Of a stretch of DNA of 39,424 nucleotides, positions 1 to 39,424 are shown one piece after another. The notes under the pieces were generated by a model. It had not been told where the DNA came from, searched no databases, and saw only the letters and a program-made list of their open reading frames with translations. Positions within the stretch are counted from its first letter, which is position 1; each line of letters opens with the position of its first letter. The stretch comes from Escherichia phage ETEP21B. The DNA is taken from the sequence record OR979722.1; one strand, written 5' to 3'. The position numbers and the translations under genes were made by a program.

Positions 1-145
1 GTGTTACCACTAGATATGGGGCTTAGGGTGACTTAGTGATACTATATGTGGGCCTCTATGTGTCCCTATCTGTAATCACCTAGAGTCACCACCTAGAGTC
101 ACCACCTAGAGTCACCACCTAGAGTCACCACCTAGAGTCACCACC
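1..145. repeat. Left direct terminal repeat (DTR); identical to 39280-39424. True repeat probably extends to about 184 because the right copy is cut by the window end
   Basis: Exact match of window start to window end read by eye; core GTGTCCCTATCTGT resembles the T7 terminal-repeat sequence. Confidence 0.85.
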
Positions 146-184
146 TAGAGTCACCACCTAGATTCACCACCTAGAGTCACCACC
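77..184. repeat. Tandem array of about 8 copies of 13-bp unit CACCTAGAGTCAC (one variant copy CACCTAGATTCAC) at the inner edge of the terminal repeat
   Basis: Head-to-tail perfect copies visible directly in the sequence; same unit repeated at 39356-39424. Confidence 0.9.
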
Positions 185-381
185 TTATGTCAGACCAGTG
201 ACCTCTATCCTTATGTTAACCTTCAGTCGGTGCCTTCAGTTTATCAGTGACCAGTAGGCTTAGTCACAAAGGGATTCACTATCTTACTCTGTTTAGCAGT
301 CTCTGAGTAATGAGAGAGACACAAATAGAATTGACTGAGTGCCTATAGTGCCTTAAAGGTGACTAAGAGTCAATCCCTGAT

Positions 382-404
382 TAATGCGACTCACTAATGG
401 GATA
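382..404 (+). promoter_or_regulatory. Phage RNAP promoter (phiOL-like), TAATGCGACTCACTAATGGGATA
   Basis: Match to the T7-type promoter family found 15 times in the window; same position as phiOL in T7. Confidence 0.7.
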
Positions 405-435: not shown

Positions 436-482
436 TTATAGGCTAACTTAAAGACTACTTAAAGATAACTTAAAGTCTAACT
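436..482. repeat. Three phased copies of ACTTAAAG (about 11-bp spacing) just upstream of the first early promoter
   Basis: aACTTAAAGactACTTAAAGataACTTAAAGtct seen in sequence; two more copies at 38605-38625. Confidence 0.7.
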
Positions 483-32608: not shown

Positions 32609-32631
32609 CAATACGACTCACTATTGGGAAG
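32609..32631 (+). promoter_or_regulatory. Phage RNAP promoter (phi17-like), CAATACGACTCACTATTGGGAAG
   Basis: Consensus match directly after gene 16 stop. Confidence 0.85.
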
Positions 32632-32677
32632 GCTCCCACAGCTTCCCTCTATTTACCTAACCGAAAGGAGGCTACAG

Positions 32678-34645
32678 ATGGCTAACAAAATTTCCACTGT
32701 GCGTACTTACCCACTTAATGGTGCCGTGAACTTCACAATCACCTTTGAGTATCTGGCCCGTAAGTTCGTGCAAGTAACCCTAATTGGTAAAGACCGTAAG
32801 GAACTGGTACTTAATCAGGACTATCGCTTTACCTCTAAGACGCAAATCACAACCTCTCGTACTTGGACTGCCGCAGATGGCTACCAGATGATTGAGATTC
32901 GTCGATTCACTTCAGCTACTGACCGTCTGGTTGACTTTGCCGATGGCTCTATCCTTCGTGCGTATGACCTGAACATCTCACAGATTCAGACTCTGCACGT
33001 TGCTGAGGAAGCACGAGACCTCACTGCTGATACTATCGGTGTCAACAACGATGGTCACTTAGATGCCCGTGGTCGTAAGATTGTGAACCTTGCGTTCGCT
33101 ACTAATGACTATGATGCTGTCCCTCTGAAGCAGATTAAAGAGCGTGAGACCTCTGCGTGGAATGCTGTTACTAAGGCAAACGAACATGCTGACCGTTCTA
33201 ATCGAGAGGCTAATCGTTCTCGTGATGAGGCTAACCGTGCTCAACGCGAAGCTGACCGTTCAACTCAACAGGCAGGTATCTCTACGGCACAAGCGGTTGA
33301 GTCCAAGAAGCAAGCTGACCGTTCCAACTCTGAGGCTAACCGAGCTAAAGGATATGCTGATAGTATGACCGCAAGTGTCGCTGAGGCCAAGAAGCAAGCT
33401 GACCGTTCCAACTCTGAGGCCAATCGTGCCCGTGATGAGGCCAACCGTGCTGCCGGAGAAGTGACTAAAGCTGCTGCTGAGGTTGCCAAGGCTGCTGCAC
33501 ATGTTGAGACCGCTAAGGGACATGCTGACCGAGCCAACACTGAGGCAAACCGCTCTAAGAGTGAAGCCGACCGTGCAAAGACCGAGGCCGATAAGTTGGG
33601 GAACATGAATGAATTAGCTGAGGCCATCGACAGGGTTGATGCTCCTGATGTTTACTTCAAGAGGAATGTTGTCGCCGGACACAGATTGGAGACTTCTGGA
33701 GGATCACATCTTCACCCTAATGAGATTAAATTGGTTAACAATAAATCTCCAGACCAGCACTTCATTGTACAGGCGTGGGGAACTGGAGACCCTAATGATA
33801 GGTCGCAGGTGTTTGAGTTAAAGGATAACTTGGGTCCGTACGCATTCTATATCCAGCGCCAGAAGAAGACAGACCAAACTTGGCAAATGAGTGTGAACGG
33901 TACTGTTAGCTGCGTATCCATCGAGGCTGGCAAGGGTTTCATCTCTAAGGACCGTACAGGCTCCATTCAGATGAAGACTTGGGGAGGTAGTTGGGGCCAA
34001 TGGACTTCTAATGCTGTTCCTGACATTCAGCACGATATTGAGGCCCAACATGATGCTGCTTATCTTCTGGAGAGGGCTACCATTTGGGGTAAGGAGCATT
34101 TATACGCAAAACAACTGTACAACAATGGCACTGGCGCAAACTTCTTTATCAGACACTATCTCCGTGGGACTTACTTTGACTTCCGCTCTGATGGTACTCT
34201 TATCAGTTCCACCGGATGGAATATCCCGGCAGATGGTAACCTGTACATCAAGAAATATGGAACGTATATTGACGCATGGGTAAACAAGCGCCTAAGCGAA
34301 CATGCCTACAACAAGAGCGAGACAAACAACCTAGTGAATGGTCGATTGACACAAGCCCAAGCTGATGGGCGATACGTCCGTAAGAATGCGGGGTGGACTG
34401 AAGTGTGGAAAGGAAGCGCTGGCGGTGGTACCTCGGTAGGTCTCTCACAGGATGTTCGTTGGAGAACCATCTGGATTCAAACTCAAGGCAGATGGAACCC
34501 TGTTCAGATTGGTGATAATGGTGCTTACTACATCTCGTCGATGGGCGGTTGGTTGCAGTTTACCATCTCGAATAATGGTAGAACATTCCGTAACGATGTG
34601 GATAGAAGCTCTGTTCCTACGAGAATCTTGGTTCAAAACCAATAA
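32678..34645 (+). CDS. 17: Tail fiber protein gp17, 655 aa: conserved N-terminal tail-attachment domain, repetitive Arg/Ala-rich shaft, distinct C-terminal receptor-binding part
   Basis: N-terminal 150 aa collinear with T7 gp17 (FEYLARKFV.VTLIG.DRK, DRLVDF.DGSILRAYDLN..QIQT.HVAEEARDLT.DTIGVNNDGHLDARGR.IVNLA); C-terminus WKGSAGGG.SV..SQD also T7-like; middle differs. Confidence 0.93.
   Translation: MANKISTVRTYPLNGAVNFTITFEYLARKFVQVTLIGKDRKELVLNQDYRFTSKTQITTSRTWTAADGYQMIEIRRFTSATDRLVDFADGSILRAYDLNISQIQTLHVAEEARDLTADTIGVNNDGHLDARGRKIVNLAFATNDYDAVPLKQIKERETSAWNAVTKANEHADRSNREANRSRDEANRAQREADRSTQQAGISTAQAVESKKQADRSNSEANRAKGYADSMTASVAEAKKQADRSNSEANRARDEANRAAGEVTKAAAEVAKAAAHVETAKGHADRANTEANRSKSEADRAKTEADKLGNMNELAEAIDRVDAPDVYFKRNVVAGHRLETSGGSHLHPNEIKLVNNKSPDQHFIVQAWGTGDPNDRSQVFELKDNLGPYAFYIQRQKKTDQTWQMSVNGTVSCVSIEAGKGFISKDRTGSIQMKTWGGSWGQWTSNAVPDIQHDIEAQHDAAYLLERATIWGKEHLYAKQLYNNGTGANFFIRHYLRGTYFDFRSDGTLISSTGWNIPADGNLYIKKYGTYIDAWVNKRLSEHAYNKSETNNLVNGRLTQAQADGRYVRKNAGWTEVWKGSAGGGTSVGLSQDVRWRTIWIQTQGRWNPVQIGDNGAYYISSMGGWLQFTISNNGRTFRNDVDRSSVPTRILVQNQ
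33303..33420 (+). repeat. Two perfect 34-bp direct repeats (CCAAGAAGCAAGCTGACCGTTCCAACTCTGAGGC) 84 bp apart inside gene 17, within a wider degenerate repeat region (about 33180-33600)
   Basis: Exact nucleotide repeat read from sequence; encodes repeated KKQADRSNSEAN blocks. Confidence 0.85.
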
Positions 34646-38055: not shown

Positions 38056-38505
38056 ATGAGAGTGGCAATTGACCCTATCAGTGGTTGCCACAACTTCCTT
38101 GGGTGTAAGACTTCGGGTGGCTACGGTAGAATCCGTGTAGGTGGTGTCCATTGGATGGCCCACAGATACGCTCTATCAGTTCACCTGAAGCGTCCACTAG
38201 AGGAAGGCTGTGTGGTAATGCACTTATGTGATAACCCTGCCTGTGTTAACCCTGAGCATCTCAGAGAGGGAACTCAGAAGGAGAACATGCAGGACTGTAA
38301 GGACAAGGGAAGGATGCACAAGGCTACAGGCCCTAGAGCACCTCGTCGTCCGTACATCAATAAAATCAACCAGCGATACAATGAGAGACTTAAGGCTGTC
38401 CTTGAGGCCGATGGGTCTGACTTGCAGGTCGCTAAGAAGCTGGGCCTGAACCTACAGTGGGTCAAGAAGGCTCGTAAAGGTAAACTAGTTATGCAAGAAG
38501 TGTGA
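38056..38505 (+). CDS. HNH endonuclease with C-terminal helix-turn-helix-like region, 149 aa
   Basis: Motif GYGRIRVGGVHWMAHRYA...HLCDNPACVNPEHL..GTQKEN; AAGGAGGT RBS; immediately downstream of terminase. Confidence 0.8.
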   Translation: MRVAIDPISGCHNFLGCKTSGGYGRIRVGGVHWMAHRYALSVHLKRPLEEGCVVMHLCDNPACVNPEHLREGTQKENMQDCKDKGRMHKATGPRAPRRPYINKINQRYNERLKAVLEADGSDLQVAKKLGLNLQWVKKARKGKLVMQEV

Positions 38506-38571
38506 ATAGTTAAGCACATCATGAGGCCCTTCCAGTGAACTATAAAAACCTAATGAAATCAAGGGTGTACC

Positions 38572-38594
38572 TAATACGACTCACTATTGGGAAG
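38572..38594 (+). promoter_or_regulatory. Phage RNAP promoter (phiOR-like), TAATACGACTCACTATTGGGAAG
   Basis: Consensus match near the right end, as phiOR in T7. Confidence 0.85.
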
Positions 38595-38906: not shown

Positions 38907-39279
38907 ACTGCTCATCGGCGCTTAGTGCGCTCTTAGTGATAATGGTCGATATACATCTTCCCTATTATCACTGTAAGAAGTCAACTCTAAGAGTAACCCT
39001 TATGTACCCTATGGTCTACAGGGTCTCTTAGGGTCTCTCACGTAGTCTCACCGCTATGCTCCTGCGTAGCACCTTATGATAGCCACCCTGTGGTGAACCT
39101 TATGAGACTTGATGTACCCTTTAAGAATCCTACAGAAAATCTGAGTGGGTATCTCATAGTTCATACAAAGTGTTTCCCCCCCCTATGGCCTCCTTCAGTC
39201 CACTCAAAGAGTGCCACCCTATGGTAACTTATGGTTTACTTAATGTCAATCCTTATATGTGACATTGGGTTAACTCTAG

Positions 39280-39424
39280 GTGTTACCACTAGATATGGGG
39301 CTTAGGGTGACTTAGTGATACTATATGTGGGCCTCTATGTGTCCCTATCTGTAATCACCTAGAGTCACCACCTAGAGTCACCACCTAGAGTCACCACCTA
39401 GAGTCACCACCTAGAGTCACCACC
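39280..39424. repeat. Right direct terminal repeat (truncated by window end), includes at least 5 copies of the 13-bp tandem unit from 39356
   Basis: Exact identity to 1-145. Confidence 0.85.

What the first reader, a model, noticed from the sequence alone, without database searches (positions are those of the whole stretch)
77..184. Perfect 13-bp tandem array forming the inner part of the terminal repeat
About eight head-to-tail copies of CACCTAGAGTCAC lie between the conserved GTGTCCCTATCTGT core and the unique left region, and are repeated at the right end. T7 has dispersed CCTAAAG heptamers in the equivalent place as I recall; here the unit is longer and strictly tandem. Such arrays are candidate binding or pausing sites for concatemer processing and packaging. 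Copy number may differ between the two ends (one variant copy on the left), and tandem repeats commonly mis-assemble.
Basis: partly seen in the sequence, partly recalled or inferred. Interest (0 to 1): 0.45.

Follow-up and report, generated by a model that had tools for sequence, protein, structure and literature searches.

The report
T7-type junction repeats, homogenised into array
The 13-base tandem array is real, but it is this phage's version of the short repeats that T7-like phages carry just outside their terminal repeat, so it is an ordinary feature, and the 145-base "terminal repeat" in this record is probably an artefact of how the genome was cut open.

Summary
Positions 77-185 carry 8.4 head-to-tail copies of CACCTAGAGTCAC with one G>T change at 163. 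The first 5.3 copies recur at 39356-39424, where the record ends.

The interpretation does not hold. The window is a Berlinvirus-type T7-like phage, about 92% identical to PhiV-1, 285P, BA14, Kvp1 and FE44. In relatives with mapped or annotated ends (T7, T3, BA14, Kvp1, FE44) the terminal repeat (TR) starts at TCTCAYAGT and ends at ...GTGTCCCT. Those landmarks sit at 39152 and at 39346 (=67). The true TR is therefore predicted to be 39152-39346 (195 bp), and the array begins 10 nt beyond it. The 145-bp end redundancy is most likely a linearisation overlap.

The array is the positional and sequence counterpart of T7's "SRL" heptamers, which are themselves phased at 13 bp. Near-perfect arrays of 13, 26 or 27 bp occupy the same place in Bas103, Citrof5, AP5, FE44, CarlSpitteler, SEqdws-315 and CR8. 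BA14 and Kvp1 have none.

The most likely origin is recent slippage amplification of one SRL unit. A role as redundant protein-contact sites during concatemer maturation is only inferred.

This is a new member of a known kind, of low interest.

The parts
77..185 (+). 13-bp tandem array: 8 full units of CACCTAGAGTCAC (unit 7 has G>T at 163) plus 5 nt. It is an SRL-type repeat block lying outside the predicted terminal repeat.
   Evidence: position relative to the relatives' TR
39356..39424 (+). Second copy of the first 5.3 array units, cut off by the end of the record. It is part of the 145-bp end redundancy.
1..145 (.). End redundancy of the record, identical to 39280-39424. Both limits are set by the record's ends, and neither coincides with a conserved T7-group terminus. 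It is probably a linearisation or assembly overlap.
39152..39346 (+). Predicted true direct terminal repeat, 195 bp, from TCTCATAGTT... to ...CTATGTGTCCCT. Window 1-67 is a second copy of its last 67 bp.
   Evidence: Alignment to the BA14, Kvp1 and FE44 ends: 169/195, 171/195 and 168/195 identical. T3 read-end termini from PMC3896407.
60..73 (+). Conserved concatemer-junction core GTGTCCCTATCTGT (also at 39339-39352). The predicted mature right end falls after T67 (39346). ATCTGTA at 68-74 resembles the class II RNA polymerase pause signal ATCTGTT.
   Evidence: signal definition from bioRxiv 10.1101/2021.01.11.426313
181..245 (+). Degenerate SRL units following the array: CCTTATG at 183 and 209, CCTTCAG at 220 and 233.
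38998..39135 (+). SRR-type same-strand CCTNNNG motifs to the left of the predicted TR (CCTTATG three times, CCTATGG, CCTGTGG, CCTACAG).
39273..39292 (+). Inverted, imperfect 1.5-unit copy of the array unit inside the predicted TR (16/20 complementary, with a perfect 10-mer).
379..402 (+). Phage-RNA-polymerase promoter in the position of T7 phiOL, downstream of the array.
   Evidence: family D3; compare T7 phiOL at 405 and BA14 phiOL at 353-375
38569..38592 (+). Last phage promoter (phiOR-like). Its transcripts would run through the junction and into the array on concatemers.
   Evidence: family D3; the direction of transcription through the junction is inferred from T7 biology

Best explanation
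The array is this phage's 'SRL' block. SRL is the run of same-strand CCT-NNN-G motifs, phased about 13 bp apart, that T7-group phages carry immediately to the right of the terminal repeat at the concatemer junction. Here one unit, CACCTAGAGTCAC, has been amplified and homogenised to about 8 copies. The likely cause is replication slippage or unequal exchange among the 13-bp-phased units. The array lies outside the real terminal repeat, which is predicted to be 39152-39346. It starts 10 nt beyond the predicted right-end cleavage point and 3 nt after the pause-signal-like ATCTGTA. The record is a permuted linearisation of the junction with a 145-bp overlap. These points are shown: position, homology, periodicity, strand bias, non-coding status and lack of secondary structure. 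This point is inferred: as in T7, the motifs act as redundant, copy-number-tolerant protein-contact sites that help the maturation machinery (terminase gp18/gp19, with the paused phage RNA polymerase) act at the adjacent cut site.
For: Identity of the phage: about 92% identity over 23 kb to the Berlinviruses PhiV-1, 285P, BA14, Kvp1 and FE44. TR limits in relatives: T7 1-160 and FE44 1-193 both end ...GTGTCCCT|ATCTGT. BA14 TR is 1-194 with 'concatemeric junction' annotated at 193-200, and its right end stops at ...CTCTGTGTCCCT. Kvp1 has 194 bp by primer walking. T3 termini from read pile-ups are TCTCATAGTTCAAG... and ...CTCTATGTGTCCCT. Alignment A1 places these landmarks at window 39152 and 39346/67. 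Homology to SRL: TRF calls T7's own SRL a period-13 array, and T7 motif spacing is 13 bp in 9 of 14 intervals, with the heptamer conserved and the spacers not. The T7 unit CCTAAAGTCACCT differs from the window's CCTAGAGTCACCA at 2 of 13 positions. Motif field: CCTNNNG occurs 20 times on the + strand and 3 times on the - strand in the 640-bp junction (31/kb against 4.8/kb elsewhere), including sites left of and inside the TR. Recurrent homogenisation at the same place: Bas103 13 bp x10.1 at 100%, Citrof5 13 bp x12, AP5 26 bp x5.8, FE44 26 bp x4.5, CarlSpitteler 26 bp x4.8, SEqdws-315 27 bp x5.2, and CR8, which is annotated '(acctacagtcaac)3'. Single CCCTAGAGTTAAC and CTCTTAGAGTCAT units occur at this place in relatives L072 and L023. 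Not coding, not RNA, not a hairpin: no ORF of 20 aa or more, no Rfam hit, and a ssDNA fold of -3.3 kcal/mol with z=+2.64.
Against: No reads are available, so the physical ends are inferred from homology only. The functional part is not tested. BA14 and Kvp1, about 91% identical, have no array here and PhiV-1 has only two units. Many copies and the exact unit are therefore dispensable, which fits a neutral slippage product equally well. A 13-bp spacing is out of phase with the DNA helix, which is awkward for simple one-face protein binding. I could not read the papers that mapped the T3/T7 pac sequences (Chung & Hinkle 1990; Hashimoto & Fujisawa 1992), so I do not know whether they show SRL to be required or dispensable.
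Confidence: 0.72

Rival explanations
1. One reading: the record's ends are the physical ends, the terminal repeat is the 145+ bp shared by both ends, and the array is its inner part.
For: Window 1-145 is identical to 39280-39424. Real direct terminal repeats also begin and end at the record's ends.
Against: The conserved left terminus TCTCATAGTTCATAC lies at 39152, inside the window. Window position 1 aligns to the middle of the TRs of BA14, Kvp1 and FE44. The relatives' right ends stop at GTGTCCCT, upstream of any repeat. The 128 bp at 39152-39279, homologous to the left part of the relatives' TR, would then occur only once. That architecture is unlike phages about 92% identical. Other records in this group are visibly cut at arbitrary places: PhiV-1 inside a C-run, and CarlSpitteler with the junction at 4.2 kb.
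Confidence: 0.04
2. The array is a neutral minisatellite. It is a slippage product of the repeat-prone junction region, with no function beyond that of any spacer DNA.
For: Copy number and unit differ widely among close relatives: none in BA14 and Kvp1, two units in PhiV-1, 26-27-bp units in FE44, CarlSpitteler and SEqdws-315. The exact 26-mer of two units is absent from three large collections. Other simple repeats nearby also vary, for example (GA)16 in CarlSpitteler against (GA)4 here.
Against: The underlying CCTNNNG motif, its strand and its roughly 13-bp phase are kept across genera (T7, T3-like, KP32-like, Berlinvirus, CR8). In T7 the heptamer is conserved while the spacers drift. This argues for selection on the motif field, though not on this array's length.
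Confidence: 0.2
3. Assembly artefact: the array, or its copy number, was produced or distorted by short-read assembly of a tandem repeat.
For: The record's overlap ends inside the array. A 109-bp array is near the limit of what short reads can span. Published experience shows that assemblers mishandle T7-like termini (PMC10438801).
Against: The array has a unique variant unit and clean, homologous flanks on both sides. Comparable arrays occur in many independently sequenced phages. The existence of the array is therefore credible, and only the copy number is uncertain.
Confidence: 0.04

Closest known systems
T7 'SRL' short repeats, the CCTAAAG heptamers at T7 175-340 just right of the terminal repetition (named by Dunn & Studier 1983; name and citation from my own knowledge, sequence read)
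   Same: Same position, starting within about 10-20 nt of the TR's right boundary and the GTGTCCCTATCTGT core. Same strand and the same 13-bp phase. A closely similar unit: CCTAAAGTCACCT against CCTAGAGTCACCA. Non-coding, and upstream of the phiOL-type promoter and the early host promoters.
   Different: In T7 the spacers differ between units (81-82% matches by TRF) and the block is about 165 bp. Here 7 of 8 units are identical, the motif is CCTAGAG rather than CCTAAAG, and the homogeneous block is 109 bp, followed by a few degenerate CCTTATG/CCTTCAG units.
Homogenised junction arrays in other deposited T7-like phages: Bas103 (PQ850602), Citrof5 (PP554395), AP5 (KM253764), FE44 (KF700371), CarlSpitteler (MZ501055), vB_SEqdws-315 (OK663600), CR8 (HG818824)
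   Same: Near-perfect tandem arrays that begin 2-20 nt after the same core. Periods are 13, 26 or 27 bp, with 4.5-12 copies, and units contain CCT-NNN-G plus GTCA.
   Different: The unit sequence is different in each phage, and the window's unit is not found elsewhere. Most Berlinvirus relatives use a double unit of 26-27 bp, whereas the window uses a single 13-bp unit.
Class II pause/termination signal of T7 RNA polymerase at the concatemer junction (ATCTGTT, pausing 6-8 nt downstream)
   Same: ATCTGTA at 68-74 occupies the same place in the same conserved core. A pause 6-8 nt downstream would fall in the first array unit.
   Different: The seventh base is A, not T, in this phage and in all Berlinvirus relatives seen. 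The signal is described as intolerant of any base change for T7 RNA polymerase. It is a neighbour of the array, not the array itself.
Multi-site terminase recognition regions, such as lambda cosB R sites and pac sites of SPP1/P22 (from my own knowledge)
   Same: Reiterated short motifs lying next to the terminase cleavage site.
   Different: No binding data exist for T7-group SRL motifs. The spacing of 13 bp is not helical. Copy number varies from 0 to 12 among relatives.

Membership tests
T7-group SRL-type junction repeats | Lies immediately to the right of the terminal repeat's right boundary and the conserved junction core | tested here: met
   The array starts at 77. The core is at 60-73, and the predicted TR end at 67 is taken from alignment with the T7, FE44, BA14, Kvp1 and T3 ends.
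T7-group SRL-type junction repeats | Reiterated CCTNNNG-type heptamer on the top strand at about 13-bp spacing | tested here: met
   CCTAGAG lies every 13 bp. The junction holds 20 motifs on the + strand against 3 on the - strand. T7 spacing is 13 bp in 9 of 14 intervals. TRF periods of 13 or 26 bp dominate among 23 junctions.
T7-group SRL-type junction repeats | Non-coding, upstream of the phiOL-type promoter and the early host promoters | tested here: met
   No ORF of 20 aa or more overlaps 77-185. There is a phage promoter at 379-402 and a sigma-70-like site at 624-652.
T7-group SRL-type junction repeats | Counterpart motif field (SRR) on the other side of the terminal repeat | tested here: met
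   There are six CCTNNNG motifs on the + strand at 38998-39129, left of the predicted TR start at 39152.
T7-group SRL-type junction repeats | Role in concatemer processing or packaging | not testable with these tools
   No experimental data are available.
Direct terminal repeat of T7-like phages | Begins at the conserved left terminus TCTCA(C/T)AGT | tested here: not met
   The window's redundancy begins at GTGTTACC. TCTCATAGTT lies at 39152.
Direct terminal repeat of T7-like phages | Ends at ...GTGTCCCT, inside the junction core | tested here: not met
   The window's redundancy runs 78 nt past this point into the array and stops only at the end of the record.
Direct terminal repeat of T7-like phages | Physical ends shown by read pile-up, doubled coverage or run-off sequencing | not testable with these tools
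   No reads are available.
Class II T7 RNA polymerase pause signal (neighbouring element) | Exact heptamer ATCTGTT preceded by A, C or T | tested here: not met
   The window has T-ATCTGTA, a 6/7 match. Whether the cognate polymerase of this phage pauses here is unknown.

The most novel reading that the evidence does not exclude
The array could be a tunable functional module rather than a passive slippage product. In that reading its copy number sets how efficiently, or where, the terminase and paused-polymerase complex matures the right end. In this lineage, right-end cleavage might even occur within the array and give terminal repeats of variable length. The inverted partial unit inside the TR (39273-39292) could then pair with array units to bracket the cut site.
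Probability: 0.06. Interest if true: 0.5.

Novelty: new member of a known kind. Interest (0 to 1): 0.17.

Why it matters
The main value is as a correction. The record's apparent 145-bp terminal repeat should not be taken as the physical terminal repeat. By homology the ends should be at 39152 and at 39346 (=67), giving a 195-bp repeat and a mature genome of about 39,474 bp.

There is also a modest biological point. The 13-bp phase of the junction motifs is conserved across T7-group genera, and single units have been independently amplified into near-perfect arrays in several lineages. These natural copy-number variants, from 0 to 12 units, could be used to test what the repeats flanking the T7 terminal repeat do. 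I found no account of their function in the literature I could search.

Tried and rejected
**Exact-match searches.** Searches for two array units (26-mer) in IMG/VR, the metagenome collection and the genome collection found nothing. A BLAST search of 56-200 against phages found nothing above 83% identity. No copy-number series for this exact unit could therefore be built.

**Hairpin or cruciform.** The ssDNA fold of 60-200 is weaker than all 200 shuffles (z=+2.64). This was rejected for the array on its own.

**Structured RNA.** There is no Rfam match in 1-900 at E<=1.

**Coding sequence.** No ORF of 20 aa or more overlaps the array. Each unit carries CTAG, so stop codons rotate through all frames.

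**Promoter inside the array.** The consensus scan found none.

**Primase-site idea.** T7 primase sites are GGGTC, TGGTC and GTGTC (from memory). Units contain only GAGTC, and the GTC is not conserved among T7 SRL units, so I dropped this.

**One unit per subunit of a terminase ring.** I considered this and set it aside, because a 13-bp spacing is out of helical phase.

**Literature.** Searches for SRL/SRR, for pacB (swamped by 'PacBio') and for CCTAAAG gave no description of SRL function. The phiYeO3-12 and phiA1122 genome papers were not held.

Full report
**1. What is in the sequence**

Positions 77-185 hold a head-to-tail array of the 13-mer CACCTAGAGTCAC. Tandem Repeats Finder gives 8.4 copies, 97% matches and no indels.

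Unit by unit, the array reads as follows:
- six perfect units at 77-154;
- one variant unit at 155-167 (CACCTAGATTCAC, G>T at 163);
- one perfect unit at 168-180;
- a degenerate unit CACCTTATGTCAG at 181-193.

The first 5.3 units recur at 39356-39424, where the window ends. Window 1-145 is identical to 39280-39424.

Allowing two mismatches, the 13-mer occurs 18 times against 1.44 expected, and none of 100 shuffles reached that count. The conserved core GTGTCCCTATCTGT is at 60-73.

**2. What genome this is**

A 23-kb stretch is 90-92% identical to the Berlinvirus members PhiV-1, 285P, CarlSpitteler, BA14, Kvp1 and FE44 (Autographiviridae, Studiervirinae). The window carries a dozen T7/T3-type phage promoters (family D3). 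No record in the phage collection is the same phage.

**3. Where the real terminal repeat is**

The relatives give consistent limits for the terminal repeat (TR):
- T7's TR is 1-160 and ends ...CTCTGTGTCCCT, immediately before ATCTGT.
- FE44's annotated repeat is 1-193 and ends at the same place.
- BA14's is 1-194, with "concatemeric junction" annotated at 193-200. The BA14 record ends ...CTCTGTGTCCCT.
- Kvp1's 194-bp repeat was verified by primer walking on phage DNA (PMC2579914).
- T3's physical ends, mapped by read pile-ups, are TCTCATAGTTCAAG... and ...GTACATCTCTATGTGTCCCT (PMC3896407).

All of these genomes begin with (T)CTCA(C/T)AGT.

In alignment A1, the left ends of BA14, FE44 and Kvp1 align to window 39152 (gggta|TCTCATAGTTCATACAAAG). 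BA14's right end aligns to window 39346, which equals 67 in the left copy. Window position 1 aligns to the middle of the relatives' repeat.

The predicted TR is therefore 39152-39346. It is 195 bp long and matches the TRs of BA14, Kvp1 and FE44 at 169, 171 and 168 of 195 positions. The predicted mature genome is 39279 + 195 = 39474 bp, compared with 39472 for Kvp1.

The array starts 10 nt beyond the predicted right end. It is outside the terminal repeat, not its inner part.

The record's 145-bp redundancy starts and stops only where the record does, and it matches neither conserved terminus. The simplest reading is a junction-spanning contig linearised with an overlap. Other records of this group are also cut arbitrarily. 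PhiV-1 is cut inside a C-run, and CarlSpitteler has the junction 4.2 kb into the record. A published workflow paper describes this failure for T7-like phages (PMC10438801). All of this is inference from homology, because no reads were available.

**4. What the array corresponds to**

They are not dispersed.
- Their start-to-start spacing is 13, 13, 12, 13, 13, 10, 18, 13, 13, 13, 13, 13, 11, 12.
- TRF scores them as period-13 arrays with 81-82% matches.
- The heptamer positions are conserved while the spacers are not.
- The T7 unit CCTAAAGTCACCT differs from the window's CCTAGAGTCACCA at two positions.

In the window, the array sits in a wider field of same-strand CCTNNNG motifs. There are 20 on the + strand and 3 on the - strand in the 640-bp junction. 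That is 31 per kb, against 4.8 per kb in the rest of the genome. The field includes sites to the left of the repeat (38998-39129), inside it, and after the array (183-233).

This is the T7 arrangement of short repeats on both sides of the terminal repeat. The names SRL and SRR are from Dunn & Studier 1983, as I recall them.

**5. The same thing elsewhere**

I scanned IMG/VR for the 14-nt core and ran TRF downstream of it. I also inspected BLAST hits of the array region. Near-perfect arrays at the same place are recurrent:

| Phage or locus | Period (bp) | Copies | Matches | Unit or note |
|---|---|---|---|---|
| EmilieLinder_Bas103 | 13 | 10.1 | 100% | ACCTCCTAAAGTC |
| Citrof5 | 13 | 12 | 91% | CACCCTGAGTCAT |
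| AP5 | 26 | 5.8 | 99% | |
| FE44 | 26 | 4.5 | 96% | |
| CarlSpitteler | 26 | 4.8 | 97% | |
| vB_SEqdws-315 | 27 | 5.2 | 100% | |
| CR8 | 13/26 | | | annotated "(acctacagtcaac)3" |
| IMG/VR contig L105 | 21 | 11.4 | 95% | |

Among 23 distinct junctions, the best period was 13 bp in seven and 26 bp in five. The remaining periods found were 12, 24, 25, 27 and 36 bp, and six junctions had no array.

The close relatives BA14 and Kvp1 have only degenerate units, and PhiV-1 has two. Single units such as CCCTAGAGTTAAC and CTCTTAGAGTCAT occur at this place in relatives L072 and L023.

The window's own unit is not found as a dimer in IMG/VR, in the metagenome collection or in the genome collection. Nothing in the phage collection exceeds 83% identity over the array.

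The pattern is independent, recent amplification of one unit of a pre-existing 13-bp-phased field. Slippage or unequal exchange is the obvious mechanism, but this is inferred.

**6. What it is not**

- It is not coding. No ORF of 20 aa or more on either strand overlaps it, and each unit contains CTAG.
- It matches no known RNA family.
- It has no sigma-70-like promoter or terminator.
- It is not a hairpin. The single strand folds at -3.3 kcal/mol, weaker than all 200 shuffles (z=+2.64).

**7. How it most likely works**

*Shown.* The array abuts the junction core. The mature right end is predicted to fall after T67. The following ATCTGTA (68-74) resembles the class II pause signal of T7 RNA polymerase, ATCTGTT, at which the enzyme stops 6-8 nt downstream (bioRxiv 10.1101/2021.01.11.426313; 10.64898/2026.02.12.705533). 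A pause at that distance would fall in the first array unit.

[quoted passage not shown] This is Zhang & Studier 2004, as summarised in PMC3276506. Terminase gp18 is said to recognise PacB, and gp19 to cleave at PacC (PMC9860248).

*Inferred.* The CCTNNNG field, including this array, provides redundant contact sites or spacing for that machinery. Conservation of motif, strand and phase across genera supports selection on the field. The wide range of copy number among relatives about 92% identical shows that a long homogeneous array is not required. I put about 0.35 on a real role in maturation for the motif field. I put about 0.2 on the array being wholly neutral.

Two points weigh against simple binding models. 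A 13-bp spacing is out of helical phase. The signal's seventh base is A, not T, in all the Berlinviruses seen, although the signal is described as intolerant of change for T7 polymerase.

**8. Comparison and novelty**

By position, motif, phase, strand, non-coding status and the presence of a counterpart field, the array meets every testable feature of the T7-group SRL repeats. It fails both sequence-testable features of a T7-type terminal repeat.

The kind of element has been known since the T7 sequence was published. Homogenised versions are already in GenBank, and one of them is annotated. What is new is only this unit sequence and this copy number. The verdict is a new member of a known kind, of low interest.

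The practical result is that the record's termini are probably misplaced.

**9. Limits**

- There are no reads, so the termini and the copy number are unverified.
- The primary pac-mapping papers could not be read.
- Full-text searches found no statement on SRL function.

Noticed in passing
window 39273-39292 versus array units (e.g. 39356-39378; equivalent to 77-99): There is an inverted, imperfect 1.5-unit copy of the array unit inside the predicted terminal repeat. ACTCTAGGTGTTACCACTAG is 16/20 complementary to CTAGAGTCACCACCTAGAGT, with a perfect 10-mer. The predicted right-end cut site lies between the arms. Kvp1 shares the TR segment without having the array.
   Followed up: partly
window 68-74 (and 39347-39353): The junction signal reads ATCTGTA rather than the canonical class II pause heptamer ATCTGTT. 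All Berlinvirus relatives examined share the A, while the T7-like, T3-like and KP32-like junctions examined have T. It is unknown whether the cognate polymerase still pauses here.
   Followed up: partly
window 39175-39182: There is a C8 homopolymer inside the predicted terminal repeat. Relatives have 5-8 C here, and the PhiV-1 record (MT542512) is cut exactly in this run. It is a likely site of sequencing or assembly length error.
   Followed up: no
window 446-479: There is an 11-bp repeat ACTTAAAGACT x3.1 (78% matches) between the phiOL-like promoter and the early host promoters. T7 and FE44 have ACTTAAAG motifs at the same place.
   Followed up: no
window 38056-38505 (+): A 149-aa ORF upstream of the last phage promoter (38569-38592) matches the HNH endonuclease family (Pfam HNH_3, E=1e-9). 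It is probably a homing endonuclease.
   Followed up: partly
window 33188-33591, within ORF 32624-34645 (+): There are in-frame 21-bp and 105-bp repeats (GCTGACCGT...GAGGCTAACCGT...) inside a 673-aa ORF. I presume this is a repetitive segment of a late structural protein such as the tail fibre, but I did not check.
   Followed up: no
L003 (CarlSpitteler MZ501055) about 1030-1062, equivalent to window about 313-321: CarlSpitteler has a (GA)16 microsatellite where the window has (GA)4. It is a second hypervariable simple repeat in the non-coding left end of these phages.
   Followed up: no
L131 (Citrobacter phage CR8, HG818824) 99-252 and 334-444: CR8 carries a perfect 21-bp x7.3 array upstream of the junction core as well as a 13/26-bp array downstream. 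Its annotated 189-bp terminal repeat does not coincide with the conserved core. Its ends may also need re-examination.
   Followed up: no
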